Positions 11,486 to 38,725 are shown, numbered from the stretch's first letter. The stretch: 64,000 bases of DNA from Candidatus Poriferisocius sp. (GCF_965208355.1 NZ_CBDBOM010000003.1:1217394-1281393), one strand, 5' to 3'. Numbers and translations are program-made. The notes: a model not told the origin generated them from the letters alone.

Positions 11486-11537
11486 TTCGGAAGACTACCA
11501 TCTAGTCTTCCGAATCCAGCTCCATTTCGGAAGACTA
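11463..11537. promoter_or_regulatory. two tandem copies (period 40 bp) of a 35-bp palindromic element spanning the fic start codon
   Basis: The sequence TAGTCTTCCGAA-N11-TTCGGAAGACTA occurs at 11463-11497 and again at 11503-11537, with one mismatch. It lies between the divergent fic and RCC1-like genes. Confidence 0.6.
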
Positions 11538-11636
11538 TTGACCTATTATTCTGAAACTAGTGGCGGCGCGGGAGTCAGATACCGAAGCGGACTCAGCGTG
11601 CCACAACTACCGCAGGCCTTTACACTCGGCGCTCAC

Positions 11637-13997: not shown

Positions 13998-14110
13998 ATG
14001 GCAAGAACGAATTCTCGGGATAGATGAACCCCAGTGGAATCAAGTCAATGGCCGGATGGGAAAAGAGCCATGCGGTGAGATTCTCATCTGTTCTGAAGGC
14101 TCAGTAACCT

Positions 14111-18609: not shown

Positions 18610-18709
18610 GCGGGCACAAGGATAGGGGTGGTCTACTGATGTGGCAAGAGGGGCTTATGGTGAACATGTTTATTTCTGATAATCGTGTTGTGATTGTGGG
18701 GGGTTTCTC

Positions 18710-19423
18710 ATGCGGGTGATCGCCCATCGGGGAGCTTCGCAGGCCGAGCGGGAGAACACGCTGGAGGCGTTTCGAGTCGCGGTCGCGCTCAACGCCGACG
18801 GGGTGGAGCTGGACGTGAGGCGCACGGCCAACGACGTTTTGGTGGTACACCACGACGCCCATCTGGCCGACGGTCGAGCAATCATCGATCTGCATGACGA
18901 CGAGCTGCCCGACTGGGTGCCGACGCTGGCCGAGGTGATGGATGTGTGTTTGGACCCGGCCTCAGAGCGGGAGTTCGTGATCAACATCGAGATCAAGAGC
19001 GCGCCCAATGATCCCGACTACGACGCCGAGCACCAAGTGTCGGCCGCAGTGGCCGGTCTGGTGATGGGGTGGGGGATTGGCGAGCACCGCGGAGAGGTGA
19101 TCGTCTCGTCATTCGACATTGAGGCCCTCAATCGGATCAGGGCCATCGATCCCGGCATTCCCACCGCCTACCTGACCTTCGAGGTGCTGGCTCCCGAATT
19201 GCTGGTGAACCGGGTGGTAGCCGCCGGCCACAGCGCCATCCACCCCTACTTCGCCTCCACCAGCAAGGCCCTCATAGACGCCGCCCACGCTGCCGGCCTC
19301 GAAGTCAACGTGTGGACCGTCAACGAGCCCGACCAGATCGCCCAACTGGCCGCTATAGGCGCCGACGCCGTCATCACCGACGTCCCCGACATAGCCCGCG
19401 CGGCAATAAATGAAAAAGACTGA
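18710..19423 (+). CDS. glycerophosphodiester phosphodiesterase
   Basis: 237 aa with IAHRGASQAERENTLEAF, GVELDVRRT and NIEIK, typical GDPD-family motifs. Confidence 0.85.
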   Translation: MRVIAHRGASQAERENTLEAFRVAVALNADGVELDVRRTANDVLVVHHDAHLADGRAIIDLHDDELPDWVPTLAEVMDVCLDPASEREFVINIEIKSAPNDPDYDAEHQVSAAVAGLVMGWGIGEHRGEVIVSSFDIEALNRIRAIDPGIPTAYLTFEVLAPELLVNRVVAAGHSAIHPYFASTSKALIDAAHAAGLEVNVWTVNEPDQIAQLAAIGADAVITDVPDIARAAINEKD

Positions 19424-26950: not shown

Positions 26951-27505
26951 ATGGGCGACTGGTGGGACGGCCTGACCGGCGACCTACAGGTCTTCTATCT
27001 GATCGGCGTTATTGCCGGCGTCTTCCTCATTCTCCAGCTCCTGTTGTTGGGCTTCGGCGTCGGCTCCGACCTCGACATCGATCTTGACGATGAGGGCGCG
27101 GGAACGGGGTTCCTGTCCCTGCGCAGCCTGACGGCGTTTTTCTTCGCCTTCGGCTGGACCGGCGTTTTGATGAAGGAAGCAGACAGCTCGACCGCGGTCT
27201 CGGTGATCGTGGCCATTGCGGTGGGGCTGGCGGTGTTCTTCGCCGTAGCCTTCATGTGGCGCAAGTTCTCCCAAATGGAGGAGAGCGGCTCAATCGACTA
27301 CCAGAGCGCGGTGGGCGTCATCGGCACCGTATACCTGCCGATTCCGGCCAACCGCTCCATGCCCGGCAAGGTTGAAATACTCATCCAGGGGCGGCTCCGA
27401 GTGATCGACGCCTACACCAACTCGGACGGCGACCTCCCGGCTCAGACCCGCGTCACCGTGGTTTCTGTGGTGGACCAGTCCACCGTCCTCGTCAAACCCC
27501 TGTAA
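26951..27505 (+). CDS. NfeD/YqiJ-like membrane protein
   Basis: 184 aa with an N-terminal multi-TM region and a C-terminal OB-like segment GKVEILIQGRLRVIDAYT. It lies directly upstream of a flotillin gene, the classic nfeD-SPFH pairing. Confidence 0.75.
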   Translation: MGDWWDGLTGDLQVFYLIGVIAGVFLILQLLLLGFGVGSDLDIDLDDEGAGTGFLSLRSLTAFFFAFGWTGVLMKEADSSTAVSVIVAIAVGLAVFFAVAFMWRKFSQMEESGSIDYQSAVGVIGTVYLPIPANRSMPGKVEILIQGRLRVIDAYTNSDGDLPAQTRVTVVSVVDQSTVLVKPL

Positions 27506-27534
27506 CTCATCTGATTTAGACCCGAAAGGACCTT

Positions 27535-28959
27535 TTGATGGCTGCTATAGCCCTTGTTGCTGGCCTGATTGTCATTCTTCTCATCGCGCTGCTGTGGATA
27601 TCTTCCCGCTACAAGCGCTGCCCCTCCGACCGCGTGCTGGTGATCTACGGCCGGGTGGGAGGACAGGGCCAGTCGGCCCGGTGCCTCCACGGAGGCGGTG
27701 CCCTGGTGTGGCCCGTCATCCAGGGGTATGCCTTCTTGGACCTCACCCCGCTGCCGATCGAGATCAAACTCCAAGGCGCCCTGTCGCAGCAGAACATCCG
27801 GGTCAACACGCCGGCCACGTTCACGGTGGGAATCTCCACCGAGCCCGGCGTGATGCAGAACGCCGCCGAGCGGCTGTTGGGGCTGAGCCTGGAAGAGATC
27901 GAGAACCTGGCCCGAGACATCATCTTCGGCCAGATGCGGGTGGTCATCGCCACCATGCCCATCGAGGAGATCAACGCCGACCGGGAGAAGTTGATCACCA
28001 ACATCACCGAGTCGCTGGAGATCGAACTGCGCAAGGTGGGTTTGCGGCTCATCAACGTCAACATCCAGGACGTAACCGACGAGTCGGGCTACATCGACGC
28101 CCTAGGACGCGAGGCCGCCGCCCGGGCCATCAACGAGGCCAAGATCAAAGTGGCCGAACAGGAGCGCGACGGCGATATCGGCGCGGCCGAGGCCCAGCGC
28201 GAGCGGCGCATCAGGGTGGCTGAGGCAAACGCCACCGCCACCGAGGGCGAGAACGAATCGCAGGTGGTGATCGCCAACTCCGACAGCACACGCCGCCAGC
28301 AGGAGGCCGAAGCCGAGCGGGCCGCGGTCACCGCCGAGCGGGTCACGCAGGCCCGTGCGGCCGAAGAGTCGTTTGCCGCTGAAGGGCAGGCCGAGCAGGC
28401 CCGTGCTTCCCGTGACAAGGCCTCGCAGGAAGCCGACATCGTGGTGCCCGCCGAGGTGGAGCGCGAGCGGGTCCGCACGCTGGCTGAGGCCGAGGCCGAC
28501 CGCATCAGGCTGGTGAAGGGAGGCGAGGCCGACGGTCAGCGCTTGCTCATGGAAGCCGAGGCACTGGGCTTGCTGGCCCTGCTCACCCGCCGGGCCGAGG
28601 GTCTCGGTGCGCTGGTGAACAACGCCGGTGGCAATCCTCAGCTGGCTGCCCTGCTGCTGGTTGCCGAACAGATGCCCAACCTGGTGGCCGAGCAAGTGAA
28701 GGCCATCTCCAATCTGAAGATCGACCAGGTCACGGTGTGGGACTCCGGCGGCAGCGACGGCAGGACTGGCAACAGCACCGCCAACTTCCTATCCGGCCTG
28801 GCCAGCTCCCTGCCGCCGATCCACGACCTGGCCGCCCAGGTCGGCATCAAGCTGCCCGCCTACCTAGGTGAGCTCGACGATGAGTCCGCCCTCGAGCGAC
28901 TGCGTGAAATCGCCGACCAACTCGACCAGCCCAGCACCGAGGACTCACCGGGCGAGTAG
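27535..28959 (+). CDS. flotillin / SPFH-domain protein (YqiK-like)
   Basis: 474 aa with an N-terminal TM, an SPFH body and a long Ala/Glu-rich coiled-coil region (AEAQRERRIRVAEANA...). Confidence 0.85.
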   Translation: MMAAIALVAGLIVILLIALLWISSRYKRCPSDRVLVIYGRVGGQGQSARCLHGGGALVWPVIQGYAFLDLTPLPIEIKLQGALSQQNIRVNTPATFTVGISTEPGVMQNAAERLLGLSLEEIENLARDIIFGQMRVVIATMPIEEINADREKLITNITESLEIELRKVGLRLINVNIQDVTDESGYIDALGREAAARAINEAKIKVAEQERDGDIGAAEAQRERRIRVAEANATATEGENESQVVIANSDSTRRQQEAEAERAAVTAERVTQARAAEESFAAEGQAEQARASRDKASQEADIVVPAEVERERVRTLAEAEADRIRLVKGGEADGQRLLMEAEALGLLALLTRRAEGLGALVNNAGGNPQLAALLLVAEQMPNLVAEQVKAISNLKIDQVTVWDSGGSDGRTGNSTANFLSGLASSLPPIHDLAAQVGIKLPAYLGELDDESALERLREIADQLDQPSTEDSPGE

Positions 28960-28971: not shown

Positions 28972-28986
28972 CTGGCGCCCACGGCA
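28972..28986. repeat. 15-nt direct repeat of the tRNA-Arg 3-prime end (att-like)
   Basis: The string ctggcgcccacggca is identical to 35698-35712. It begins 13 nt after the flotillin stop codon. Confidence 0.8.
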
Positions 28987-29093
28987 CCGGGCAGCCCTCC
29001 GCAGCCGCCCGGTTCAGTGAAGGGAATCCAATGCACTCAGCCGGGTCGCTGGAACTTTGTTGGCTGTCTGAATAGCCCTTAGCCTGCCGACCT

Positions 29094-31115
29094 ATGCCCG
29101 CCCCATACAGCCTGTTCAATCAGCGTCTTCCAATGGGCGTGGTTGCTGTGCTCGCAGTCGTGGTGGGCTTGTTGGTGTCGCATCTCGGCGTTGTTGGGGC
29201 TAGCGCGCAACCTGAACCCGAGTCCCAGCCCACTCCCCAAGATATTCAACACCGCGACCAGCTAATCGCCAACCAGGAGAACCTGCTGAACACTTACCGG
29301 TGCATGTTCGGGGTTGATGTCGACGCGGTCCCGGGGCAGTGCCCGAACCCCATGGTCGTCTCCCCCGGAGCCACGCCAGTAAGCCCCACCCAACAAGACC
29401 TGGCGGTGCGCGACCGGCTCATCGCCGATCAAGAAGATCTGCTCAACGTCTACCGCTGCCGTTTCGACGTCGACACCCAACTCGTACCCGGCGGCTGCAC
29501 TGACCAACCCGACCCCCAACCAACCGGCCAACCAGCAGCCGGATTTATCGCCATCTCAGCTGGCGGCGACCATTCGTGCGGAATCAGAATCGACCAAACC
29601 GCCGTCTGCTGGGGCCACAACGGTCTCGGGCAGGCGGACGCGCCCGCAGGCGCGTTCACTGCCATCTCCGCCGGCGGCGGCCATTCGTGCGGGATCAGGG
29701 CCGACCAAACCGCCGTCTGCTGGGGCCACAACAGTCACGGGCAGGCGGACGCGCCCGCAGGCGCGTTCACCGCCATCTCCGCCGGCAGCGGCCATTCGTG
29801 TGGGATCAGGGCCGACCGCACCGCCGTCTGCTGGGGCAATGGCAACTCCGGGCAGGCGGACGCGCCCGCAGGCGCGTTCACTGCCATCTCAGCTGGCGGC
29901 GGCCATTCGTGCGGGATCAGGGCCGACCGCACCGCCGTCTGCTGGGGCCACAACGGTCACGGGCAGGCGGACGCGCCCGCAGGCGCGTTCACCGCCATCA
30001 CAGCTGGCGGCGGCCATTCGTGCGGAATCAGAACCGACAGCGCCGCAGAATGCTGGGGCCACAACGATGACCTTGACTATGGGCAGGCGGACGCGCCCGC
30101 AGGCGCGTTCACCGCCATCTCCGCCGGTAGCGTCCACTCGTGCGGGATCAGAGCCGACAACACCGCAGAATGCTGGGGCTCCAACGCTCTCTGGCAGGCG
30201 GACGCGCCCGCAGGCGCGTTCACCGCCATCTCCGCCGCCACCGGCCATTCGTGTGGGATCAGAGCCGACCGCACCGCCGTCTGCTGGGGCCACAACGGCT
30301 TCGGGGAGGCCGATGCGCCCGCAGGCGCGTTCACTGCCATCTCCGCCGGCGGCGTCCATTCGTGCGGAATCAGAACCGACAACACCGCAGAATGCTGGGG
30401 GGACCGTTACAAACTCGATCGCTCCGAGGTAGACGCGCCCGCAGGCGCGTTCACCGCCATCTCCGCCGGCGGCAAACATGCCTGCGGGATCCGGGTCGAC
30501 AACACCGCAGAATGCTGGAGCTACAACTTTCACGGGCAGGCGGACGCGCCCGCAGGCGCGTTCACCGCCATCTCCGCCGGCGGCCATTCGTGCGGGATCA
30601 GAGCCGACAACACCGCAGAATGCTGGGGCTCCAACGCTGTCGGGCAGGCGGACGCGCCCGCAGGCGCGTTCACCGCCATCTCCGCCGCCACCGGCCATTC
30701 GTGTGGGATCAGAGCCGACAACACCGCCGTCTGCTGGGGCCACAACTTTCACGGGCAGGCGGACGCGCCCGCAGGCGCGTTCACTGCCATCTCCGCCGGC
30801 GGCAACCATGCCTGCGGGATCAGGGCCGACCGCACCGCCGTCTGCTGGGGCCACAACAGTCACGGGCAGGCGGACGCGCCCGCAGGCGCGTTCACCGCCA
30901 TCTCCGCCGGCGGCGGCCATTCGTGCGGGATCAGGGCCGACCGCACCGCCGTCTGCTGGGGCAATGGCAACTCCGGGCAGGCGGACGCGCCCGCAGGCGC
31001 GTTCACTGCCATCTCAGCTGGCGGCGGCCATTCGTGTGGGATCAGGGCCGACCGCACCGCCGTCTGCTGGAACTGGACGACGAACCTTCCGGCAGGCGTT
31101 TCCTGGGTGTTTTGA
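29094..31115 (+). CDS. secreted RCC1-like beta-propeller repeat protein (14 near-identical blades) with N-terminal Cys-pair modules
   Basis: Signal peptide MGVVAVLAVVVGLLVSHLGVVGASAQP. This is followed by 2x the RDxLI..YRC..VPGxC module and a Pro/Gln linker. Fourteen units GQADAPAGAFTAISAGGGHSCGIRADRTAVCWGHNxH follow. Confidence 0.82.
   Translation: MPAPYSLFNQRLPMGVVAVLAVVVGLLVSHLGVVGASAQPEPESQPTPQDIQHRDQLIANQENLLNTYRCMFGVDVDAVPGQCPNPMVVSPGATPVSPTQQDLAVRDRLIADQEDLLNVYRCRFDVDTQLVPGGCTDQPDPQPTGQPAAGFIAISAGGDHSCGIRIDQTAVCWGHNGLGQADAPAGAFTAISAGGGHSCGIRADQTAVCWGHNSHGQADAPAGAFTAISAGSGHSCGIRADRTAVCWGNGNSGQADAPAGAFTAISAGGGHSCGIRADRTAVCWGHNGHGQADAPAGAFTAITAGGGHSCGIRTDSAAECWGHNDDLDYGQADAPAGAFTAISAGSVHSCGIRADNTAECWGSNALWQADAPAGAFTAISAATGHSCGIRADRTAVCWGHNGFGEADAPAGAFTAISAGGVHSCGIRTDNTAECWGDRYKLDRSEVDAPAGAFTAISAGGKHACGIRVDNTAECWSYNFHGQADAPAGAFTAISAGGHSCGIRADNTAECWGSNAVGQADAPAGAFTAISAATGHSCGIRADNTAVCWGHNFHGQADAPAGAFTAISAGGNHACGIRADRTAVCWGHNSHGQADAPAGAFTAISAGGGHSCGIRADRTAVCWGNGNSGQADAPAGAFTAISAGGGHSCGIRADRTAVCWNWTTNLPAGVSWVF
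29530..31075 (+). repeat. in-frame tandem array of ~111-bp units (108-123 bp) inside the RCC1-like gene
   Basis: The motif caggcggacgcgcccgcaggcgcgttcac recurs at 29631, 29742, 29853, 29964, 30084 and onward. Blades 1-3 are nearly identical to blades 11-13, and blades 5-6 to blades 9-10. Confidence 0.9.
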
Positions 31116-31344
31116 GCCCAGAAGCGTCGGCGGGGATGAGGCCCCGAGAGCGAGTCGAGAATTTGGAGCGCACGCGGATTGAACCTCGCCGGGCATTGCG
31201 CAGGCTCTCAAGATCCCTGGGTTTGGTGGAGTGGCGATGTTGGAGTCACGCTGCCATTTCCGACGCTCACATGAGAAGGCCATTGTGGGGTTGACCTGGG
31301 AAGTTCGGGGGGAATGTGTCACTGGGGCCGGTATAATTTCATCC

Positions 31345-32583
31345 ATGGAAGTTGCGTTGAACCCCGGTGCAAAGCCTGGAACGAACGGCGCTGGTGCGGG
31401 TTTTGGTTTCCCGGATTTCTCTGAGGCAGGCGCTTCGGAGTTGTTGGGGTTGATGGGCGAGGCTGATCTGTTTCGCCGCCGGGCCGAGGGCTATCTGGTC
31501 GGCCTTGTGGTCCGCTACGGCGAGTTGGAGGGCCCGGGCGCGGCGGCGACGGTGTGCCATCAGCTCGGTATCAGCGCCTACCGGGCCCGCCGGCTGGCCA
31601 AGACGGCCCAGGGTGTCGCGGTCATGCCCCAGTTACTGGACGCCGTGCAAGACGGGCGCATCTCCGCCGACCATGCCGGGCTGGTGGCCGAGTCGCACAA
31701 GCGGGCGCCGATGAGCAAACAAGACCAACAAGAGCTGTTGGCGCTGGGTGGCTGGCAGGGCCACGACAATTTCAAGAAGACAGTCGCTGCCCGCGAAGAC
31801 CAGCGCCGCGCCGACGACGGGATGGGACGCACCGAGCGCCAGCGGGCTCGCCGCAGCGCCAAGGTGTTCGACGGGGCCGGTGGCATGGTTGTGCTGCACG
31901 CCGAGTTGGACCAGGAATCCGGAGAGCGGGTCAAGATCGCCCTTGGCGCCATGAGCACCAAGATGCTCGGCAACGACATCGCCTTCGACCCCATCCGCAC
32001 CTTCGAGCAGCGCAACGCCGACGCGCTGGTCGCGCTCATCACCCAACAACCCGCCGACTCCCCAAGCACAGCAGCGGCGGGCGGGCCCGGCTGCGGGATC
32101 CGACCGCAAAAGACGGTGCTGGTGATCTCCGCCGACTACGACGCCATCAACGGCCAGCTCCAAAACGCCGGGCTGATCGACGGGACGCCCATCGAGCTCG
32201 ACGAAATCCGCCGCCTCGCCTGCGACGCGCACATCGTGCCGATGATCTTCGCAGCCGACGGACAGCCCCTCTATATCGGCAGAGCCCAAAGAGCTGTCAC
32301 TAAGGCCCAAAAGCTGGCCCTGTACCGCAGAGACCGCGGCTGCGTCGGCTGCGGCATCAGACCCCAGGCCTGCGACGCCCACCACATCCAACCCTGGGAT
32401 CACAACGGGCCCACCGACATCACCAACCTCGTGCTGCTGTGCCCTCGCTGCCACACCAAAGTCCACAAACTCGGCCACACCGTCGAACACGACATCGAAA
32501 CAGGCCGATACCGCCTCCAACCCCCACCCCGACCCAGCCCCAAAACCCACCCGCCACCCGCTGAACAACTAAGAGCCGCCTAA
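31345..32583 (+). CDS. DUF222-type HNH endonuclease (REP13E12-like)
   Basis: The C-terminal motif is CVGCGIRPQACDAHHIQPWDHNGPTDITNLVLLCPRCHTKVH, with a DUF222-like N-terminal body. ATG 31345 lies 7 nt after a TATAAT (31332-31337), so the transcript may be leaderless. The ORF-track start at 31231 is less likely. Confidence 0.8.
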   Translation: MEVALNPGAKPGTNGAGAGFGFPDFSEAGASELLGLMGEADLFRRRAEGYLVGLVVRYGELEGPGAAATVCHQLGISAYRARRLAKTAQGVAVMPQLLDAVQDGRISADHAGLVAESHKRAPMSKQDQQELLALGGWQGHDNFKKTVAAREDQRRADDGMGRTERQRARRSAKVFDGAGGMVVLHAELDQESGERVKIALGAMSTKMLGNDIAFDPIRTFEQRNADALVALITQQPADSPSTAAAGGPGCGIRPQKTVLVISADYDAINGQLQNAGLIDGTPIELDEIRRLACDAHIVPMIFAADGQPLYIGRAQRAVTKAQKLALYRRDRGCVGCGIRPQACDAHHIQPWDHNGPTDITNLVLLCPRCHTKVHKLGHTVEHDIETGRYRLQPPPRPSPKTHPPPAEQLRAA

Positions 32584-32621
32584 TCACCCGCCCCGACACG
32601 GCCACGATTGATTGCAGCTGA

Positions 32622-32773
32622 GGACCAACGAATTCGCGATCCAGCCCCGCCAATTTCCTCTCTGGCCTGGCCATCTCTCTGACACCCATCCACGACCTTG
32701 TCGCCCAAGTGGGGGTCAAGTTGCCCGCCTACTTCGGCGAGGCGCCCGACTCAGTGGCGGACCTTCACGTCTA
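32622..32773 (+). pseudogene. 3-prime remnant of a flotillin paralogue
   Basis: The frame reads ...ANFLSGLAISLTPIHDLVAQVGVKLPAYFGE...; flotillin residues encoded at 28779-28872 read ANFLSGLASSLPPIHDLAAQVGIKLPAYLGE. A ~93-nt DNA alignment is roughly 75-80% identical by eye. An in-frame stop lies at 32619-32621 and there is no upstream body. Confidence 0.75.
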
Positions 32774-32820
32774 GCCAAGACGCAAAGGCCCTCCGATAGG
32801 GGCGTGATACCGTCGCTTGC

Positions 32821-33291
32821 GTGGGGTCTCCTTTGAACAGACGCATGGCTGTCGTCATGTGCTGGTTAGCGGGGCTGTCCGCCCTGCTTGCTGCCATCGG
32901 AGCACTTCTGCCCTGGGCGACTGTTGAGGGTCCCATATCCGACTTCTTCGTTGAGGACTCCGACACGCCGGAGACCACAGTGCTGGTCGGCGCGGCGGTT
33001 GGCGCTGTGTCTGCGGCCGCGTTCGCGCAGTGGAGAAAGAGGATGATCGCCGCGCTGGGCCTGCTGGCTGGGCTGGTGATCACTTTGGTCGGCGCGATCA
33101 ATCTCGCCGAGGGCGGGGTTGACGCCCCGGACTTCATGGACACATCGCCGGAGCCGGGGCTCTATATGGTCGTGGTCGGCGGTGCCGTCTTGGCCGTTTC
33201 CTCGGGGTATCTCACCATCAAGAGGCAATCGAGTAAGCCGGTAGGCGAAGGCGGCGAACACTTGATCGGCGGCGAAGGCTCAGACGGCTAG
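32821..33291 (+). CDS. hypothetical membrane protein (about 4 TM segments)
   Basis: 156 aa with hydrophobic stretches WLAGLSALLAAIGALL, VLVGAAVGAVSAAAF, AALGLLAGLVITLVGAI and MVVVGGAVLAVSSGYL. The start is GTG 32821 or ATG 32845. Confidence 0.5.
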   Translation: MGSPLNRRMAVVMCWLAGLSALLAAIGALLPWATVEGPISDFFVEDSDTPETTVLVGAAVGAVSAAAFAQWRKRMIAALGLLAGLVITLVGAINLAEGGVDAPDFMDTSPEPGLYMVVVGGAVLAVSSGYLTIKRQSSKPVGEGGEHLIGGEGSDG

Positions 33292-33337
33292 CTCTGCGGC
33301 TGATTCGGACTCGCTGGGAGTCCGGAGTCGGGCTGTC

Positions 33338-34372
33338 TCAACTGCATTCAGGCAAGTACTCGTGCCACTCTTGGGTGCGGTCGTCGGCTGTTGGCGGAGG
33401 CGGGGGCACCTCAAGGTCGGCGTTGGGTTCATAGGCGACCCGAGTTGCCAAGATCATTTCGGCGGATCCAAATATCTCCATTGCTTCTTGGCGTTCTTGT
33501 TCGCTGAATTCGGCGCTGAAGCTCTCGGACTCGGCAAGGCCGGCAAAGATGCCCGAGTAGTCTTCCGTGGTCCACAGAACGCTCAGCAGACCCTGCCGGT
33601 CAAGCTCGATCACCACCTCAGCGGTGTTGGTCTCAAAGACCCGGATAAAGAGCTCGGTCAGCTCATCGAGATCTTCTGGGGAGGAAGCCATCTCCAGAGA
33701 GGCGGCTTCGCAACGAGCCTCATTTTCAACGTTGCCGCCCAATGCCTCGATGAGCTTCGCCGACGTGGTTGTGCCGACAAAGGTGGGGGGATCATCAGAC
33801 GTCTGCTCAATCGTGATCAACGCCGCGGGAAGGCTCACCGCCATCTCGCTCAAATCGGGACTTGAAGAACCCGCAACTGCATGCATGAGTTCAGAGCCTT
33901 CTGCCTCAAGGGAGGCCAGGTCGACGAAGAACACCCCCGGCTCCATGTACCCCATATCGGCATCAGGTTCTGCGTCGGCCAGCGGCTGAAGGGCCGTGGT
34001 GTCCATCACGATCCGATCTTGGTCGAGCCACATCTCAAATTCGAGATCGTCCCATTCACCTAGCGGGAATCCGAACACCGACTCAAGCAACGTCGATAGA
34101 TCGATCCTGCAGTATTCCCTATCGGAGCTCACCTCACACACAAATGCGGGACTCCCCTCGTCGAGTCCAGAGGAAAGCTCGACTCCCGCAATCTTCAACT
34201 GCAGACCGACTGATAAAGACTCCCTATAACTGGACGCCTCCGCGGTATCAGCCAGCGCCGCGCTCAGCAACCCGATTGTGGTCACGCTGGTGTCGTCGGT
34301 GCCCCTACCGCATCCCGCGGCGAGCAGCCCAACGGCAATCACCCCGGCCAGCGTCCTCCGAATCCAAATCAT
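33338..34372 (-). CDS. acidic lipoprotein, function unknown
   Basis: 344 aa, MIWIRRTLAGVIAVGLLAAGCG with an LAAGC lipobox. The gene has lower GC (single-line counts ~52%). Confidence 0.6.
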   Translation of the reverse strand: MIWIRRTLAGVIAVGLLAAGCGRGTDDTSVTTIGLLSAALADTAEASSYRESLSVGLQLKIAGVELSSGLDEGSPAFVCEVSSDREYCRIDLSTLLESVFGFPLGEWDDLEFEMWLDQDRIVMDTTALQPLADAEPDADMGYMEPGVFFVDLASLEAEGSELMHAVAGSSSPDLSEMAVSLPAALITIEQTSDDPPTFVGTTTSAKLIEALGGNVENEARCEAASLEMASSPEDLDELTELFIRVFETNTAEVVIELDRQGLLSVLWTTEDYSGIFAGLAESESFSAEFSEQERQEAMEIFGSAEMILATRVAYEPNADLEVPPPPPTADDRTQEWHEYLPECS

Positions 34373-34398
34373 CTACGCAGACGCTACTACCGCCTAAA

Positions 34399-34411
34399 GC
34401 GCCCACGGCAG
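34399..34411. repeat. 13-nt copy of the tRNA-Arg 3-prime end; left target-site duplication of the IS element
   Basis: The string gcgcccacggcag is identical to 35701-35713. Confidence 0.8.
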
Positions 34412-35700
34412 TGTGTTGGTTCAGGACATAGGAACCTTATGTCGCGAGACATAGGAACATCGCGGCGGCGGTCCAGGGTGGGGGATGTCGAGGGCCCGCT
34501 TGGTGATCACCGCTGTCGTTGTCGAGGGGCGCACGCACGCCGATGTCGCCGCCCAGTACGGCCTTTCGAGGTCATGGGTCACCCGTTTGGTCGCCCGGTA
34601 CCGCGCCGAGGGGCCTGCCGCGTTCGAGGCCCGGTCCCGGCGCCCCAACACCACACCGACAGCGATTTCGCCCGAGGTTGTGGAGCTGGTCGTGAACCTG
34701 CGCTCAGAGCTCGCCGCACAAGGGCTCGACGCCGGGCCGCACACCATCTGCTGGCACCTCGCCCAGCGCCACCAGATCACCGTGTCGCCGGCCACGGTCC
34801 GGCGCCGCCTCGTCGAGCTCGGCCTCGTCGAGGCCAACCCCAAAAAGCGGCCCCGATCGTCCTACACACGCTTCGAAGCCGATCTGCCCAACGAGTGCTG
34901 GCAGTCCGACTTCTGCCGCTGGGCGCTCGCCGACGGCTCGACTGTCGAGGTCATCACCTGGCTCGACGACTGCTCCCGCTACGCCCTGTCGGTCACCGCC
35001 CACCGGCGCATCACCGGCCCCATCGCGGCGGCCACATTCGACCACACGTGCGCTGACCACGGCATTCCCGCCTCCACGCTCACCGACAACGCCATGGTCT
35101 ACACCACCCGCCTCTCCGGCGGGAAAGGCGGCCGCAACGCCCTGGAGTCCCGCCTCGCGGCCCTCGGCGTCGCCCAGAAGAACTCCAAGCCCAACTGCCC
35201 CACCACCTGCGGCAAAGTCGAGCGATTCCAGCAAACCCTCAAGAAATGGCTCAAAGCCCGAACCCCGCCCCACAGCCTCGACCAGCTCCAAACCCAGATC
35301 GACGAATTCACCCGCACCTACAACCACCACCGCCCCCACCGATCCCTCGGACGCTCAACCCCAGCCGCCGCCTACACCCGACTCCCCAAAGCCACACCCC
35401 ACCAAAACAGCGACAGAACCCACTACCGCGTCCGACGCGACCGCATCGACAAATCCGGCACCGTCACCATCCGCCACAACGGCAAACTCCACCACATCGG
35501 CATCGGCCGAGCCCACAAACACACCCCCGTCATCCTCCTAGTCGACGGCACCCACACCAGAGTCATCGACCACACCACCGGCGAACTCCTACGACAACCC
35601 CACCTCGACCCCACACGCGACCACCAACCCCGCCACAAGAACTGACAAACACCCCGCCGCGCAGGTTCACAAGGTTCCTATGTCTCGCGACATCACACTG
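34409..35700 (+). mobile_element. IS481-family insertion sequence (~1.29 kb)
   Basis: The termini are CAGTGTG...CACACTG. The right-end 27-nt inverted repeat is cagtgtgatgtcgcgagacataggaac (reverse complement of 35674-35700). The left copy matches it but is interrupted by a 23-nt internal duplication at 34416-34438. A single DDE transposase ORF is present, and gcgcccacgg flanks both ends. Confidence 0.8.
34485..35645 (+). CDS. IS481-family transposase (HTH + DDE integrase core)
   Basis: 386 aa with an N-terminal HTH (HADVAAQYGLSRSWVTRLVARYR) and an rve-like core (WQSDFCRW...TDNAMVYT...KPNCPTTCGKVERF). Confidence 0.88.
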   Translation: MSRARLVITAVVVEGRTHADVAAQYGLSRSWVTRLVARYRAEGPAAFEARSRRPNTTPTAISPEVVELVVNLRSELAAQGLDAGPHTICWHLAQRHQITVSPATVRRRLVELGLVEANPKKRPRSSYTRFEADLPNECWQSDFCRWALADGSTVEVITWLDDCSRYALSVTAHRRITGPIAAATFDHTCADHGIPASTLTDNAMVYTTRLSGGKGGRNALESRLAALGVAQKNSKPNCPTTCGKVERFQQTLKKWLKARTPPHSLDQLQTQIDEFTRTYNHHRPHRSLGRSTPAAAYTRLPKATPHQNSDRTHYRVRRDRIDKSGTVTIRHNGKLHHIGIGRAHKHTPVILLVDGTHTRVIDHTTGELLRQPHLDPTRDHQPRHKN

Positions 35701-35774
35701 GCGCCCACGGCAGGATTCGAACCTGCGACCCCTTGCTCCGGAGGCAAGTGCTCTATCCCCTGAGCTACGTGGGC
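35699..35774 (-). tRNA. tRNA-Arg (anticodon CCG)
   Basis: The reverse complement is GCCCACGTAGCTCAGGGGATAGAGCACTTGCCTCCGGAGCAAGGGGTCGCAGGTTCGAATCCTGCCGTGGGCGCCA. It folds as a standard cloverleaf. The terminal CA of the CCA is contributed by the abutting IS end. Confidence 0.9.
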
Positions 35775-35824
35775 AGTAACTGGGTGAGTATAGCTAGCGG
35801 GTGGCCTCTACCATTGTTGAGTTC

Positions 35825-37447
35825 ATGGCCGACATCCGCACCTCCCTCTCTGATGCGCTACGCGCCGCGCTCGTGGCCACCGGCATCGACCTACCTGGCG
35901 ACTTTCAGGTCGGGTTGGAGCGACCGGCGCGGCGTGAGCACGGCGATTGGTCGTCCAACGCCGCGCTGGCCATCGCCAAGGGCGTCGGGCGCAATCCCCG
36001 GGAGCTGGCGGGGGAGCTAGCCGCTTGGCTGGAGGAGAACCGGCCTGAGCACGTGGCCGAGGTGAGCGTGGCTGGCCCCGGATTCGTCAATTTCAAGCTG
36101 GCGCCGAGTTGGCTGCACAGCGTCGTGCTCGATGCGGTGGCGCTCGGCACCGAGAGCTACGGGCGTAAGAACCTGGGCCAGGGTCGCGCCGTGATCGTGG
36201 AGTTTGTCAGCGCCAACCCCACCGGACCGGTTCACGCCGGCCACGGCCGGGGAGCGGCCTATGGCGACGCGGTGGCCCGGCTGCTGGAGTGGTGCGGTTA
36301 CGCGGTGCAACGGGAGTTCTACATCAACGATCGGGGCACGCAGATGGATCTGTACGGTGCCTCGCTAGCTGCCGTCCGGGCCGACGAACCTGTGCCCGAG
36401 GACGGCTACAACGGCCAGTACATCGCCGAATGGGCTTCGGAGATGCCTGCCGATGCCGATACCCGCCTGTGGGGGAGGGAGCGGGCGCTGGCCGATCAGC
36501 GGGAGGTTTTGGGTGAGATGGCGGTGGCGTTCGACACGTGGTCGAGCGAGCAGGCGCTGGTGGACTCGGGGGTCATCGACACCGCGCTGGCCGCCCTTGA
36601 CGCCGCCGGGGCTTCATACGAGGCCGAGGGGGCTCTGTGGCTGCGCTCCAGCGACCACGGCGACGACAAAGACCGGGTGTTGATCAAGTCCGATGGCGAG
36701 TACACCTATCTGCTGCCCGACATCGCCTATCACCGCGACAAACTTGATCGGGTCGGCTCTGATGGCCTGCTCATCAACGTGTGGGGGGCCGACCACCACG
36801 GGTATGTGGCCCGCATGAAGGCGGCCATGGCCGCGCTGGGCTGCGATCCCGCCAGTTTGGAGGTGGTGGTGACCCAGCTGGTGCGCCTGGAGTGCGACGG
36901 GGAGGAAGTGCGGCTGTCCAAGCGCACCGGCGACATCATCGAGCTGCGCGAGGTGATCGATGAGGTGGGGGCCGACGCCGCCCGGTTCACCTATCTCCTC
37001 CAGTCGATGGACACCGCGCCGACCTTCGATCTGGCCAAGGCGGCCGCCCAGGTGATGGAGAATCCGGTGTTCTACGTGCAGATGGCCCACGCCCGGGTGT
37101 GCTCTATCGCGGCCCGGGCCCAAGCCGACGGGGTGGAGCGGCTGAGCGTCGACCAGGTGGATCTGGGCGTGCTGGTCCACGAACGGGAGCTGGAGATGAT
37201 GCGCCAGCTCTCCACGCTGGGCGAAGTGATCGCCGCCGCGGCCGAAGAGCGGGCCCCGCATCGGGTCACCGCGTGGCTGCGGGACTTCGCCGCTGCGGTT
37301 CACAGCTTCTACCACGACTGCTACGTGGTGGGCACCGGCATCGCCCCCGAGCTGACCCAAGCTCGCCTCGTGCTGATTGACGCCGCCCGGGTGGGACTGG
37401 CCGTCGGCCTCGGCACCCTGGGCGTTAGCGCACCGGAGTCGATGTAG
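35825..37447 (+). CDS. argS: arginine--tRNA ligase
   Basis: From ATG 35825 (MADIRTSLSDALRAAL), with the HIGH-type region SANPTGPVHAGHGRG and a class I DALR anticodon-binding C-terminus. An in-frame GTG at 35801 is an alternative start. Confidence 0.93.
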   Translation: MADIRTSLSDALRAALVATGIDLPGDFQVGLERPARREHGDWSSNAALAIAKGVGRNPRELAGELAAWLEENRPEHVAEVSVAGPGFVNFKLAPSWLHSVVLDAVALGTESYGRKNLGQGRAVIVEFVSANPTGPVHAGHGRGAAYGDAVARLLEWCGYAVQREFYINDRGTQMDLYGASLAAVRADEPVPEDGYNGQYIAEWASEMPADADTRLWGRERALADQREVLGEMAVAFDTWSSEQALVDSGVIDTALAALDAAGASYEAEGALWLRSSDHGDDKDRVLIKSDGEYTYLLPDIAYHRDKLDRVGSDGLLINVWGADHHGYVARMKAAMAALGCDPASLEVVVTQLVRLECDGEEVRLSKRTGDIIELREVIDEVGADAARFTYLLQSMDTAPTFDLAKAAAQVMENPVFYVQMAHARVCSIAARAQADGVERLSVDQVDLGVLVHERELEMMRQLSTLGEVIAAAAEERAPHRVTAWLRDFAAAVHSFYHDCYVVGTGIAPELTQARLVLIDAARVGLAVGLGTLGVSAPESM

Positions 37448-37456
37448 GGAGTAGTT

Positions 37457-38725
37457 GTGTCAGCCTTGCCCCCGTACCTTCTGCCCGACAACGCCTCGGT
37501 GGGCGACGACGGGCGTTTGTCTATCGCCGGGTGCGATGCGCTCGAGTTGGCCGGGGAATTCGGCACGCCGCTGTTCGTCTACGACGAAGACCACATGCGG
37601 GAGCGGTGCCGCCAAGCCCGGGCGGCTTTCGGCGGATCGGTGGCGTATGCCTCCAAGGCGTTCCTGTGCTTGGCCATGGCTCGCCTGGTTCACGAGGAGG
37701 GGCTCGATCTGGACGTGGCCACCGGGGGAGAGCTGCGTGTGGCCCAGGCCGCGGGCTTGCCCGGTGATCGGCTGGTGATGCACGGCAACAACAAGTCGGC
37801 CGCCGAGCTGGCTGCTGCGGTCGAGGCCGGGGTGGGTCGCATTGTGGTGGACTCGTTTGACGAGCTCGACCGGCTCGACGAACTCCATGCCTCCACCGGG
37901 GCCCGCCCCCAGGTGCTGTTGCGGATCACTCCGGGGGTGGAGGCTCACACCCACGAGTACGTGACCACCGGGGTGGACGACACCAAGTTCGGATTCACCG
38001 CGTCCACCGGATTAGCCGACGCCGCCATTCGCCGAGCCCGGGAGGCCGACTCGGTGGAGCTTTTGGGATTGCACGCCCACATTGGCAGCCAGGTTTTCGA
38101 GCTGCGCTCCTTCCAACGGGCGGTGGAAGTGATTGCTGGCTTCGCCCATCCCTACGGGCTGCCGGAGCTGTCGCTGGGCGGCGGTTTGGGCGTGGCCTAC
38201 GTGGAAGGGGAGTCGGCCCCCACCATTGCCGAGTGGGCGGCGGCCATTGGCGAGGCCTGTGCGTCGGCCGGCTTCACGGCTCCAGTGAGCGTGGAGCCGG
38301 GCCGATCCTTGGTGGCCGCGGCGGCAATCACCCTCTATGAGGTGGGAACCATCAAAGAGCTACCCGGCATTCGCACCTACGTTTCGGTTGACGGAGGGAT
38401 GAGCGACAATCCCCGTCCGGTGCTCTACGACAGCGGCTACGAGACGTTTCTTCCCCGGGCCACCGGCCGCGACCGCGACAAGACGGTGCGAGTGGTGGGC
38501 AAGCACTGCGAGTCGGGCGACCTGTTGGTGCGTGACGGCCGAGTGCCCGGTGACATCGCGGTGGGCGACATCCTGGCCACCCCGGTGACCGGTGCCTATG
38601 GCCACTCCATGGGCTCCAACTACAACAAGGTTCTCCGCCCCGCCGTGGTGTTCGCCCGCAACGGCGATGCCCGCCTAGTCGTCCGCCGCGAGACATACGA
38701 AGACCTCCTCCGCAACGACGTCTAG
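37457..38725 (+). CDS. lysA: diaminopimelate decarboxylase
   Basis: 422 aa, GTG start. The PLP-Lys region AYASKAF, HIGSQ and CESGD motifs are present. Confidence 0.93.
   Translation: MSALPPYLLPDNASVGDDGRLSIAGCDALELAGEFGTPLFVYDEDHMRERCRQARAAFGGSVAYASKAFLCLAMARLVHEEGLDLDVATGGELRVAQAAGLPGDRLVMHGNNKSAAELAAAVEAGVGRIVVDSFDELDRLDELHASTGARPQVLLRITPGVEAHTHEYVTTGVDDTKFGFTASTGLADAAIRRAREADSVELLGLHAHIGSQVFELRSFQRAVEVIAGFAHPYGLPELSLGGGLGVAYVEGESAPTIAEWAAAIGEACASAGFTAPVSVEPGRSLVAAAAITLYEVGTIKELPGIRTYVSVDGGMSDNPRPVLYDSGYETFLPRATGRDRDKTVRVVGKHCESGDLLVRDGRVPGDIAVGDILATPVTGAYGHSMGSNYNKVLRPAVVFARNGDARLVVRRETYEDLLRNDV

What the first reader, a model, noticed from the sequence alone, without database searches (positions are those of the whole stretch)
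28972..35712. A ~6.7 kb accessory segment bounded by 15-nt direct repeats of the tRNA-Arg 3-prime end, with no integrase
The string ctggcgcccacggca occurs 13 nt after the flotillin stop (28972-28986) and again as the 3-prime end of tRNA-Arg (35698-35712). A third, 13-nt copy lies at 34399-34411. A specific 12-15-mer recurring by chance in 64 kb is unlikely (order 0.01 or less). The bounded segment holds the repeat-rich RCC1-like gene, a DUF222-HNH gene, a flotillin remnant, two lower-GC envelope proteins and an IS481 element. This looks like a degenerate tRNA-targeting island with attL and attR, or serial insertions at the same att core. No tyrosine or serine recombinase is present.
Basis: partly seen in the sequence, partly recalled or inferred. 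Interest (0 to 1): 0.65.

Follow-up and report, generated by a model that had tools for sequence, protein, structure and literature searches.

The report
tRNA-end-targeting insertion sequence makes the repeats
The repeats of the tRNA-Arg 3' end are most likely footprints of an IS481-family jumping gene that always lands at the same spot inside tRNA genes and rebuilds the tRNA end, so a transposase, not a missing integrase, explains this 'island'.

Summary
CTGGCGCCCACGGCA is exact at 28972-28986 and 35698-35712, with 0 expected by chance. A 13-nt copy lies at 34399-34411.

I fetched 12 related IS copies from sponge-associated Acidimicrobiia and one from an Arthrobacter plasmid. In 11 of them the right IS end lies 2-4 nt from the 3' end of a tRNA gene, always in the same orientation. 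Seven tRNA species are used. The other two copies abut T-arm-like fragments. Nine copies have perfect 15-17 bp target duplications: the last 13 nt of the tRNA plus 2-4 nt of trailer.

The inner copy (AAA+13 nt) abuts the left IS end. The outer pair shares a CTG trailer and ends within 1 nt of the IS-type boundary. A relative (L103) has the same architecture at the orthologous site, with its own matching trailer (GG) and different cargo.

The 5.4 kb between the outer-left copy and the IS is an accreted mosaic that includes a piece of another strain's version of this locus. How that cargo entered is unresolved. I found no published description of tRNA targeting by IS481 elements.

The parts
25612..26802 (-). 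FrhB/FdhB-like gene. It is the last gene of the conserved left flank; synteny with L003, L005, L082 and L100-L103 runs up to here or through the flotillin gene.
26951..28959 (+). Gene for a 184-aa membrane protein of unknown family (26951-27505; placed like an NfeD partner of flotillin, but no NfeD family hit) plus the flotillin/SPFH gene (27535-28959). This is the resident left neighbour of the ancestral insertion site.
   Evidence: Pfam Band_7 6e-28. Flotillin homologues of 90-99% identity are found with the same upstream genes in L081-L086 and L100-L103.
28972..28986 (+). Outer-left repeat: CTG trailer plus 12 nt of the tRNA-Arg 3' end (reverse complement). It is read as the left copy of an IS-type target duplication, made when the flotillin gene lay 12 nt from the tRNA.
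   Evidence: An orthologous copy, GGGCGCCCACGGCAG, lies 13 nt after the flotillin stop in L100-L103, and a decayed copy in L082.
28987..34395 (.). 5.4 kb of accreted non-IS cargo:
- RCC1-repeat gene 29094-31115 (+)
- DUF222-HNH gene 31231-32583 (+)
- 3' remnant of a foreign flotillin gene, about 32631-32774 (+)
- orf156 32821-33291 (+)
- lipoprotein orf344 33338-34372 (-)
   Evidence: Pfam; repeats D1-D3; remnant alignment and reading frame; lipobox; GC3 0.68-0.80. The orf156/orf344 block is 78-82% identical to blocks placed elsewhere in L082, L002 and L008.
34396..34411 (+). Inner repeat: AAA trailer plus 13 nt of the tRNA-Arg 3' end, directly abutting the left IS end. It is a canonical left junction from an insertion into a tRNA-Arg with an AAA trailer.
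   Evidence: The AAA trailer is seen at tRNA-Arg(CCG) in L001, L004 and L005.
34412..35697 (+). IS481-family insertion sequence, 1286 bp, with termini TGTG...CACA. The transposase ORF 34485-35645 (386 aa) is uninterrupted. The motif ATGTCGCGAGACATAGGAAC lies at 34439-34458 and, inverted, at 35674-35693.
   Evidence: NCBIfam NF033577 scores 240.9 bits against a cut-off of 224. Pfam rve, rve_3 and HTH_32. Inverted repeats I1 and I2.
35698..35713 (+). Right repeat: CTG trailer plus 13 nt. It is the tRNA-proximal copy of the duplication and forms the functional 3' end of the tRNA. With this trailer the gene happens to encode CCA.
35699..35774 (-). tRNA-Arg(CCG), the target of the IS. The insertion point lies between ...GGCAG and GATTCGAACC on the + strand, which is the T-stem/T-loop boundary, about tRNA positions 61/62.
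   Evidence: ARAGORN; Rfam tRNA 69.6 bits; junction alignment
35801..38725 (+). argS (35801-37447) and lysA (37457-38725), the conserved right flank.
   Evidence: Pfam; synteny in all relatives

Best explanation
The three repeats are target-site duplications (TSDs) of a tRNA-3'-end-specific IS481-family insertion sequence (34412-35697).

How the IS lineage behaves (shown by the sequences):
- It inserts in one fixed orientation at the T-stem/T-loop boundary of tRNA genes, between ...GGCAG and GATTCGAACC on the + strand here.
- Staggered cuts 15-17 nt apart duplicate the last 13 nt of the tRNA gene plus 2-4 nt of trailer.
- The tRNA therefore stays intact, and a copy of its 3' end is left at the far (left) side of the insert.

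How this applies to the window (inferred):
- The outer pair (28972-28986 and 35698-35712, trailer CTG) is one such duplication. It was made when the flotillin gene lay 12 nt from tRNA-Arg(CCG).
- The inner copy (34396-34411, trailer AAA, abutting the left IS end) is the left junction of a different insertion event. It arrived together with a piece of another strain's version of the same locus: a flotillin 3' remnant, orf156 and orf344.
- The tRNA 3' end is a recurrent landing pad, so older material is pushed towards the flotillin gene and remodelled.

What is not resolved: how the 5.4 kb of non-IS DNA entered. Candidate routes are:
- import by recombination, using the IS and tRNA-argS as portable homology, plus end-joining at a transposase-cut IS terminus;
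- co-mobilisation with the IS.
For: 1. Family and integrity. The transposase passes the NCBIfam IS481 equivalog cut-off. The element has TGT...ACA termini and inverted repeats.

2. Target specificity.
- 12 other copies were fetched through four different transposase proteins (70-83% identical), with no selection for tRNAs.
- In 11 of them the IS end ...CATCACA lies 2-4 nt from the 3' end of a tRNA on the opposite strand, always in the same orientation. The tRNAs are Thr-TGT, Arg-TCT, Arg-CCG, Arg-CCT, Ser-GCT, Ser-TGA and Met-CAT.
- The twelfth copy abuts a T-arm-like sequence.
- A 48%-identical element on an Arthrobacter plasmid also abuts a T-arm-like 3' fragment and has a perfect 15-nt duplication.

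3. Duplication length. Perfect TSDs of 15-17 nt (trailer plus 13 nt) occur in L090, L091, L093, L095, L096, L097, L098, L099 and L104.

4. Serial insertion. Tandem IS arrays separated by such TSDs stand at tRNAs in L091, L093, L096 and L100-L102.

5. Recurrence at this tRNA. IS copies or remnants abut this same tRNA-Arg in L001, L004, L006, L082, L094, L100, L102 and L103. In L002/L008 it is a left-end fragment.

6. The outer pair looks like one TSD.
- Both copies share the 3-nt trailer CTG, which no relative has at this tRNA.
- Identity ends 1 nt from the IS-type boundary.

7. Parallel case in L103. GGGCGCCCACGGCAG lies 13 nt after the flotillin stop and again at the IS-remnant/tRNA junction. 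The pair bounds 4.3 kb of different cargo, and its trailer (GG) matches within that genome while differing from the window's.

8. Foreign origin of part of the cargo.
- The flotillin remnant is 81% identical to the resident gene and runs into its own stop codon, then straight into orf156.
- The orf156/orf344 block sits on the other side of the flotillin gene in L082 and next to TetR in L002/L008.
- GC3 of the cargo genes is lower than that of core genes.
Against: - The outer-left copy is followed by cargo, not by a left IS end, and no IS-like sequence is detectable there. At least one further event is therefore needed.
- The IS's own flanks match at only 13 of 16 positions (AAA against CTG).
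- The outer repeat is 15 nt and lacks the final G of the canonical block.
- The trailer argument rests on 3 nt in the window and 2 nt in L103. Trailers in other arrays do not always agree (L093, L100-L102).
- No genome with the simple empty site, or with the simple flotillin-TSD-IS state, was found.
- Transposition and target choice are inferred from sequence only.
Confidence: 0.72

Rival explanations
1. The whole 6.7 kb (28987-35697) moved as one transposition unit. The IS transposase used its right end and some distal break or surrogate left end. It carried 5.4 kb of left-flanking DNA, including its old left TSD, from another tRNA-Arg locus into this one, and made the outer 15-nt duplication in a single step.
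For: - A perfect 15-nt repeat bounds exactly cargo plus IS, with the IS right end at the tRNA side.
- The old AAA junction sits inside the unit as baggage.
- L103 shows the same layout with different cargo and its own trailer.
- The cargo includes a fragment of another genome's version of this same locus.
Against: - Neither cargo left end (window 28987, L103 about 10454) resembles the left inverted repeat. The two ends do not resemble each other either.
- Such one-ended mobilisation is not documented for IS481-type elements, to my knowledge.
- The SnoaL-FMO-Rieske-TetR block of L103 also sits next to tRNA-Arg in L002/L008 in the same order. That fits inheritance or recombinational exchange as well as transposition.
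Confidence: 0.18
2. The outer repeats are the attL and attR of a decayed tyrosine-integrase island that integrated into the tRNA-Arg 3' end and later lost its integrase. The IS is a later, unrelated insertion into attR.
For: - Integrase-type use of this tRNA exists in the genus. A P4-type integrase gene lies directly beside the IS and tRNA-Arg(CCG) in L094.
- Truncated tRNA-Arg 3' fragments of 21-22 nt, followed by foreign DNA, occur in L081 and L101.
- The L101 island carries an RCC1-repeat gene.
Against: - There is no integrase or integrase remnant in the segment.
- The repeat holds only 12 nt of tRNA and stops at the IS-type boundary, not in the T-loop as in L081 and L101.
- The repeat includes a 3-nt trailer outside the tRNA that matches on both sides. 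The same holds for a different trailer in L103. Under this model that needs a coincidence of roughly 0.002 (my estimate from base frequencies).
- An IS landing in attR should have duplicated the same trailer on both of its sides, yet its left junction carries AAA.
Confidence: 0.08
3. The flotillin-side 15-mer is a chance match, or a conserved feature of the flotillin 3' flank unrelated to the tRNA.
For: The sequence is G+C-rich, short, and conserved downstream of the flotillin gene in L100-L103.
Against: - None of 100 shuffles gave a second copy.
- The copy is in direct orientation, on the 3' side of the tRNA.
- It matches the tRNA end plus the lineage-specific trailer in two lineages.
- The surrounding intergenic bases are poorly conserved (7 of 15), while the 13-mer equals the tRNA end.
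Confidence: 0.02

Closest known systems
IS481 family insertion sequences (IS481, IS1002; members with ~15-bp TSDs such as ISMac4 and ISA0963-1)
   Same: - Single-ORF DDE transposase that passes the NCBIfam IS481 model.
- TGT...ACA termini and terminal inverted repeats.
- A subset of the family is already known to make ~15 bp target duplications (PMC10045372, read).
   Different: - Most members make 6-bp duplications. IS481 and IS1002 prefer NCTAGN (my own knowledge).
- Here the target is the T-arm of tRNA genes, at one fixed position and in one orientation, and the duplication rebuilds the tRNA 3' end.
- I found no description of this in 8 literature searches. ISfinder itself could not be consulted.
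tRNA-integrating genomic islands and prophages with P4-type tyrosine integrases
   Same: - They use the 3' end of a tRNA gene.
- They regenerate the tRNA.
- They leave a direct repeat of the tRNA 3' end at the distal boundary.
- They allow tandem accretion at one tRNA.
   Different: - The enzyme here is a DDE transposase, not a tyrosine recombinase.
- The repeat arises by staggered cutting and gap repair, so it includes 2-4 nt of non-tRNA trailer, has a fixed 15-17 nt length and ends at a fixed position.
- The element encodes no attP and no integrase.
IS1202-family elements of the ISAjo2/ISAba32 group that target dif/pdif (XerCD) sites
   Same: - IS with transposases distantly related to the IS481 and IS3 families.
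- They are found in one orientation at a fixed distance from a specific conserved host sequence.
- Members of the wider IS1202 family include subgroups with long (15-17 bp) duplications (PMC10132070 abstract; PMC10045372).
   Different: The target there is a Xer recombination site, not a tRNA gene. Those elements insert beside the site rather than duplicating part of a gene to rebuild it.
Eukaryotic tRNA-gene-targeting mobile elements (Ty3, Dictyostelium TRE/DGLT-A retrotransposons; Dada DNA transposons)
   Same: They use tRNA genes as safe landing sites, with position and orientation specificity (PMC5006619 and PMC3706591 abstracts).
   Different: - Those are eukaryotic elements. To my knowledge they mostly recognise Pol III transcription factors rather than the DNA sequence.
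- They insert outside the tRNA gene or within other small-RNA genes.
- They have no direct relation to this IS lineage.
ISEcp1-type one-ended mobilisation of adjacent DNA
   Same: This is relevant only to the rival reading. A single IS at one end of a multi-kb unit is bounded as a whole by one target duplication.
   Different: ISEcp1 belongs to IS1380 and uses surrogate ends that resemble its inverted repeat (my own knowledge). No such surrogate end is visible here.

Membership tests
tRNA-integrated genomic island (tyrosine/serine recombinase type) | Direct repeats derived from the tRNA 3' end bound the element, with the intact tRNA at one end | tested here: met
   The 15-nt repeat at 28972 and 35698 is in direct orientation and lies on the 3' side of the minus-strand tRNA.
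tRNA-integrated genomic island (tyrosine/serine recombinase type) | The element encodes a tyrosine or serine integrase, or a recognisable remnant of one | tested here: not met
   Pfam and NCBIfam found none in any main ORF. tblastn with the L094 P4-type integrase found nothing in the window. The ORF next to the tRNA side (orf344) is a lipoprotein.
tRNA-integrated genomic island (tyrosine/serine recombinase type) | The repeat is an att core, meaning identity confined to the shared attP/attB sequence. In this genus that core runs into the T-loop. | tested here: not met
   The repeat holds only 12 nt of tRNA plus a 3-nt trailer. Integrase-type fragments in L081 and L101 are 21-22 nt and end in the T-loop.
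tRNA-integrated genomic island (tyrosine/serine recombinase type) | Presence/absence polymorphism with an empty site in relatives | tested here: inconclusive
   The interval is different in every relative. No genome with flotillin directly followed by the tRNA was found. Only relics imply such a state.
IS481 family insertion sequence | DDE transposase matching the curated family model | tested here: met
   NF033577 transpos_IS481 scores 240.9 bits against a cut-off of 224. Pfam rve, rve_3 and HTH_32 also hit.
IS481 family insertion sequence | Terminal inverted repeats beginning 5'-TGT | tested here: met
   TGTGTTGG... at 34412 and ...CATCACA at 35697. There is a 36-nt imperfect inverted repeat plus a 20-nt perfect subterminal repeat.
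IS481 family insertion sequence | A target-site duplication flanks the element | tested here: inconclusive
   In the window the immediate flanks match at 13 of 16 positions (AAA against CTG). Perfect 15-17 nt duplications are present in 9 related copies.
tRNA-end-targeting IS481 subgroup (defined here from the data) | The right IS end lies 2-4 nt from a tRNA 3' end, in fixed orientation, with the insertion point at the T-stem/T-loop boundary | tested here: met
   Met in the window and in 11 of 12 related copies, across 7 tRNA species. The twelfth copy and the Arthrobacter copy abut T-arm-like fragments.
One-ended or compound transposition unit (ISEcp1-like) | One target duplication bounds the IS plus adjacent cargo | tested here: met
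   A 15-nt repeat bounds 28987-35697. L103 shows the same layout.
One-ended or compound transposition unit (ISEcp1-like) | The distal boundary resembles the IS inverted repeat (surrogate end), or carries a second IS copy | tested here: not met
   Local alignment of 28987-29100 to the IS is no better than shuffled sequence. The L103 cargo starts 12 nt from the SnoaL stop codon.
One-ended or compound transposition unit (ISEcp1-like) | The same unit is found at a second genomic site | not tested

The most novel reading that the evidence does not exclude
This IS481 lineage is a DDE-transposase counterpart of integrase-type tRNA islands in two respects:
- It recognises the T-arm DNA of tRNA genes and rebuilds the gene through a 15-17 bp duplication.
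- It can also carry several kb of neighbouring DNA with it, creating integrase-free, repeat-bounded 'islands' at tRNA genes. Examples would be window 28987-35697 and L103 about 10454-14768. Such islands would shuttle eukaryote-like symbiosis genes between sponge-symbiont genomes.
Probability: 0.2. Interest if true: 0.8.

Novelty: new variant of a known kind. Interest (0 to 1): 0.6.

Why it matters
- **Annotation.** A tRNA gene plus direct repeats of its 3' end is the standard signature used to call integrase-type genomic islands. Here a DDE transposase of the IS481 family appears to produce the same signature. Integrase-less 'degenerate islands' at tRNA genes in Actinomycetota may therefore often be IS footprints, and island-finding software would mislabel them.
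- **Mechanism.** This is a bacterial IS with a strict, orientation-specific target inside a universally conserved gene feature (the T-arm). It leaves the gene intact. That is a clear case of convergence with phage integrases and with eukaryotic tRNA-targeting retroelements, and it offers a tractable system for asking how a DDE transposase reads a specific target.
- **Genome evolution.** The landing pad collects IS copies, island fragments and pieces of other strains' loci. It is a recombination hot spot where variable, eukaryote-like genes of sponge symbionts turn over (RCC1 repeats, serpin, Calx-beta, subtilases).

Tried and rejected
- **Exact look-ups** of the window's ArgS, flotillin and transposase proteins found nothing on record.
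- **Two metagenome scans** returned 0 hits. One was for the predicted empty site (flotillin flank joined to the tRNA). The other was for any tRNA-Arg(CCG) with a CTG trailer.
- **IS remnant after the outer-left repeat.** Local alignment of 28987-29100 to the IS scored below the mean of shuffled sequence (18 against a mean of 21.4). A GGTTCAG heptamer 24 nt inside looked suggestive by eye, but it is at the wrong distance and I dropped it.
- **Origin of the cargo's left end through RCC1 orthologues.** The best hits are only about 50% identical repeat proteins, so no context could be drawn.
- **orf344 as a cryptic recombinase.** It is an acidic lipoprotein with a lipobox and has no family hit.
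- **Integrase remnants in the window.** None were found.
- **IS remnant next to the window's other tRNA (tRNA-Gln, 10244-10318).** None was found.
- **Target recognition by mimicry.** All sponge-symbiont copies carry a conserved CGCAGGTTC motif near the right IS end that resembles the T-arm. The Arthrobacter element lacks it, so I demoted this to a passing note.
- **Hybrid left duplications.** I considered that they might mean the 13-mer is part of the IS. Four tRNA species give four different perfect duplications, so this was rejected.
- **Literature.** Eight searches and four papers were read. None describes tRNA targeting by IS481 elements.

Full report
**1. Observation**

The string CTGGCGCCCACGGCA is present exactly twice in the 64 kb, at 28972-28986 and 35698-35712. 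Both copies are on the + strand. None of 100 dinucleotide-preserving shuffles gave a match.

The shared 12-mer GCGCCCACGGCA occurs three times, against 0.03 expected. The third copy, 34399-34411, is 13 nt long (GCGCCCACGGCAG) and equals 35701-35713.

tRNA-Arg(CCG) lies on the minus strand and ends at 35699-35702, depending on whether CCA is counted. The repeats are therefore the reverse complement of its 3' end plus a short trailer. They lie on the side where an element inserted at the 3' end would sit.

- flotillin, 27535-28959;
- a 673-aa RCC1-repeat protein built from fourteen 111-nt units;
- a DUF222-HNH protein;
- a 3' remnant of a second flotillin gene (about 32631-32774, 81% identical to the resident gene, with its own stop codon);
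- two proteins with no family hit, one of them a lipoprotein;
- an IS481-family transposase.

**2. Source organism and variability of the locus**

ArgS relatives place the window in sponge-associated Acidimicrobiia ('Candidatus Poriferisocius' and allies; ArgS 79-91% identical). In all close relatives tRNA-Arg(CCG) sits just upstream of argS-lysA. The sequence on the 3' side of the tRNA differs in every genome, and it diverges from the very first bases after ...GGGCGC.

What lies there in each relative:

| Locus | Content on the 3' side of tRNA-Arg |
|---|---|
| L003 | a 107-aa ORF, then the FrhB-like gene |
| L005 | serpin, a two-component system, a trypsin-like protease |
| L002/L008 | a beta-lactamase-like gene, homologues of orf156/orf344, TetR, Rieske, FMO |
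| L007 | DUF222-HNH and two giant subtilases |
| L001 | IS3, Calx-beta, pyrimidine biosynthesis genes |
| L082 | a ChsH2-like gene, then the flotillin gene |
| L100-L103 | TetR, Rieske, FMO, SnoaL, then the flotillin gene |

This is a plasticity zone anchored on the tRNA 3' end.

**3. The inner repeat is the IS's own junction**

The IS runs from TGTG at 34412 to CACA at 35697 (1286 bp). It has imperfect 36-nt terminal inverted repeats and a perfect 20-nt subterminal repeat. Its 386-aa transposase is uninterrupted and scores above the curated NCBIfam IS481 cut-off (240.9 against 224 bits).

Immediately left of TGTG lies AAA-GCGCCCACGGCAG. Immediately right of CACA lies CTG-GCGCCCACGGCAG, followed by GATTCGAACC, which is the tRNA body.

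**4. The IS lineage targets tRNA 3' ends**

I fetched other copies through four transposase proteins that are 70-83% identical to the window's. Retrieval took no account of tRNAs.

- **Position and orientation.** In 11 of 12 places the right end ...CATCACA lies 2-4 nt from the 3' end of a tRNA on the opposite strand, always in the same relative orientation. The tRNAs are Thr(TGT) twice, Arg(TCT) twice, Arg(CCT) twice, Arg(CCG), Ser(GCT), Ser(TGA) and Met(CAT) twice.
- **The twelfth copy.** In L097 the copy abuts a sequence with a T-arm motif (CACTCGAACCCGC) that ARAGORN does not call as a tRNA.
- **All right ends.** Counting remnants and the copies seen next to flotillin homologues, 18 right IS ends lie within 0-3 nt of a tRNA 3' end as ARAGORN calls it.
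- **Duplication.** Where both flanks are undisturbed, the left flank repeats the last 13 nt of the tRNA gene plus the trailer. The lengths are L090 16 nt, L091 15, L093 15, L095 15, L096 15, L097 15, L098 17 and L099 16.
- **Insertion point.** It is always between ...G and GA(T/A)T(C/T)GAACC. That is the junction of the T-stem 3' strand and the T-loop, about tRNA positions 61/62. The gene is cut and rebuilt by the duplication.
- **Breadth.** An element only 48% identical, on a megaplasmid of Arthrobacter sp. ERGS1:01, shows the same behaviour. Its ends are TGTCTGGTTTCAGGACAT...CACATCACA and its duplication TGGTGCCCCGGGCGG is a perfect 15 nt. The target continues GAATTGAACCCACGACC, a tRNA/tmRNA-like 3' fragment. 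The property therefore spans two classes of Actinomycetota.
- **Serial landing.** Tandem arrays of two or three IS copies separated by such duplications stand at tRNAs in L091, L093, L096 and L100-L102. This directly shows repeated landing at one tRNA.

**5. The same tRNA-Arg is hit again and again**

IS copies or remnants abut tRNA-Arg(CCG) in many relatives:
- L094, L100 and L102: full copies;
- L006: a right end only, at the contig edge;
- L001: the last ~150 nt;
- L103 and, beside the full copy, L100-L102: the last ~130 nt;
- L004: ~45 nt;
- L082: ~35 nt;
- L002/L008: a left-end fragment fused exactly at the right-end/duplication boundary.

Integrase-type elements use this tRNA too.
- In L094 a P4-type integrase gene lies directly beside the IS.
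- In L081 and L101 a truncated tRNA-Arg 3' fragment is followed by foreign DNA. The fragments are 21 and 22 nt (GCGCCCACGGCAGGATTCGAA[C]).

Those fragments run into the T-loop. IS-type copies stop at ...GGCAG.

**6. The outer pair**

The flotillin-side copy has three properties that fit an IS-type duplication and fit an att core poorly.

(a) Trailer. It contains a 3-nt trailer (CTG) outside the tRNA that is identical to the trailer at the IS/tRNA junction. Relatives have AAA, AA, TT, CA, GG, TTT (L002/L008), TGA (L003) or TGG (L007) at that place.

(b) Boundary. It ends at ...GGCA, 1 nt short of the IS-type boundary.

(c) Orthologous relic.
- L100-L103 (flotillin 90-91% identical) carry GGGCGCCCACGGCAG 13 nt after their flotillin stop.
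- In L103 the same 15-16 nt, including its own trailer GG, recur at the IS-remnant/tRNA junction. The pair bounds 4.3 kb holding SnoaL, FMO, Rieske, TetR and the IS remnant.
- L082 has a decayed version at the same offset.

The trailer thus agrees within each genome and differs between genomes. That is what a duplication including the trailer predicts. An attP/attB core does not predict it; my estimate of the required coincidence from base frequencies is about 0.002.

It follows that the flotillin gene once lay 12-13 nt from tRNA-Arg.

**7. What the inner AAA junction means**

If the present IS had simply landed in situ, both of its flanks would carry the same trailer. They do not (AAA against CTG).

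- The AAA trailer is what L001, L004 and L005 have at this tRNA.
- The DNA attached to the AAA junction is a piece of another version of the same locus: the last ~45 codons of a flotillin gene with its own stop, running straight into orf156, orf344 and then the tRNA end.
- In L082 the orf156/orf344 block lies on the other side of the flotillin gene. In L002/L008 it follows TetR.
- The block is 78-82% identical to these relatives, whereas flanking core DNA is 85-92% identical.
- GC3 of the cargo genes is 0.68-0.80, against 0.85-0.89 for core genes.

This part, together with at least the left end of the IS, most likely came from a different lineage.

**8. What remains unexplained**

The outer-left copy is followed by cargo, not by a left IS end, and no IS-like sequence is detectable there. 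L103 is the same. I see three possible routes.

1. Accretion. An old IS insertion made the outer pair. Later landings and imports followed, using the IS and tRNA-argS as portable homology. The first IS was then lost by a deletion ending at its terminus. L002/L008 give a precedent for a deletion ending exactly at an IS terminus.
2. Co-mobilisation of the 5.4 kb with the IS as one unit.
3. Capture of filler DNA at a transposase-made break.

The data do not decide among these. I give the first the most weight and about 0.2 to the second.

Disagreement between trailers in other arrays (L093; L100-L102) shows that flanks are often reshuffled. So do the hybrid left copies in L092, L094 and L100-L102. 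This also limits how much weight the trailer argument can bear.

**9. Comparison with what is known**

The element is a member of the IS481 family: it meets the model cut-off and has the family's termini. Most members make 6-bp duplications. Some are recorded with ~15 bp (ISMac4, ISA0963-1), as are related eukaryotic IS481EU elements (PMC10045372).

Site- and orientation-specific insertion next to a conserved host sequence is known for IS1202-family elements at dif sites (PMC10132070; preprint 10.1101/2022.12.17.520857).

tRNA genes as landing sites are classical for tyrosine integrases and for eukaryotic retroelements and Dada transposons (abstracts).

I found no report of an IS481-family element, or any bacterial IS, that targets the tRNA T-arm and rebuilds the 3' end (eight searches). 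ISfinder could not be searched, and an Arthrobacter relative shows the trait. It may therefore be noted somewhere I could not see.

**10. Verdict**

The mechanism differs, because the recombinase is present and is a DDE transposase.

- Confidence that all three repeats are IS-type duplications: 0.72. The inner and tRNA-side pair is near certain; the outer-left copy is about 0.7-0.75.
- I class it as a new variant of a known kind.
- Interest is 0.6. It is notable to mobile-DNA specialists and matters for island annotation, but it rests on sequence inference and leaves one step unresolved.

Noticed in passing
L092 ~2383-2395; L094 ~2383-2395; L100 ~14768-14780; L102 ~6238-6250: Some left duplication copies are hybrids. 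The 7 nt nearest the left IS end read CCGGCAG (CCGGCTG in L100-L102), which is the tRNA-Arg(TCT) version. The adjacent tRNA, however, is Thr(TGT) or Arg(CCG). This could reflect carry-over of donor flank from a circle junction, or gene conversion between IS copies.
   Followed up: partly
L081 3942-3954: L081 has the closest flotillin homologue (99% aa). Seven nt after its flotillin stop lies TGCCCCCGCCACC, the sense-strand 3' end of tRNA-Met. In 1.63 Mb of fetched loci this 13-mer otherwise occurs only at the tRNA-Met of L098 and its duplication. So a relic of a different tRNA, inverted, sits at the same breakpoint.
   Followed up: partly
L081 7642-7662; L101 ~16070-16091: Truncated tRNA-Arg(CCG) 3' fragments of 21-22 nt (GCGCCCACGGCAGGATTCGAA[C]) are followed by unrelated DNA. 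These look like integrase-type attL sites. The L101 island carries an RCC1-repeat gene (17752-19422, minus strand).
   Followed up: partly
L094 817-2238: A P4-type tyrosine integrase gene (Arm-DNA-bind_3, Phage_int_M, Phage_integrase), preceded by an AbiEii gene, lies directly next to the IS at tRNA-Arg(CCG). In that genome (the same as L083) the flotillin gene is elsewhere, followed by malate synthase and isocitrate lyase.
   Followed up: no
L095 ~969-2395: An IS256-family element (Transposase_mut) has inserted into the 15-nt duplication between two tandem IS481-family copies. It has its own 8-bp duplication, AGCGCCCA.
   Followed up: no
L002 and L008 ~9816-9891: A ~70-nt left-end fragment of the IS is fused directly to the tRNA-Arg 3' end. 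It runs from the inverted-repeat-like CGTGCTGGCTCAGGACAT to the transposase start ATGAGCTT. The deletion's right endpoint falls exactly at the right IS end/duplication boundary.
   Followed up: partly
window 35698-35702: In this genome the CTG trailer makes the tRNA-Arg gene encode CCA (...GGGCGCCAG). The orthologous genes in L001, L002, L003, L005 and L008 do not encode CCA.
   Followed up: partly
window 29421-31178: The RCC1 gene consists of 14 tandem 111-120 nt units, some 83-90% identical over 300 nt, with a 25-nt core that is 96-100% identical. At 673 aa and without an SLH domain it is shorter than most homologues, which are ~800-1150 aa and often carry SLH. It may be truncated or recently homogenised.
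   Followed up: no
window 35655-35668 and the right ends of L089-L103: All sponge-symbiont copies carry CGCGCAGGTTC about 30 nt inside the right IS end. This matches the T-arm of most target tRNAs (TCGCAGGTTCGAA) but in the opposite orientation. The Arthrobacter element lacks it, so its meaning is unclear.
   Followed up: partly
window 31231-32583; L007 8218-9573; L081 4346-5958: DUF222-HNH genes recur in this plasticity zone: next to tRNA-Arg in L007 and next to the flotillin gene in L081. They are only 68-72% identical at the DNA level, which suggests separate arrivals of a possibly selfish gene.
   Followed up: no
window 38722-42912 (minus strand): A 1396-aa ORF lies downstream of lysA. Its L082 counterpart has FtsK/SpoIIIE domains and is followed by a WXG100 gene, so a type VII (ESX-like) secretion locus adjoins the region.
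   Followed up: no
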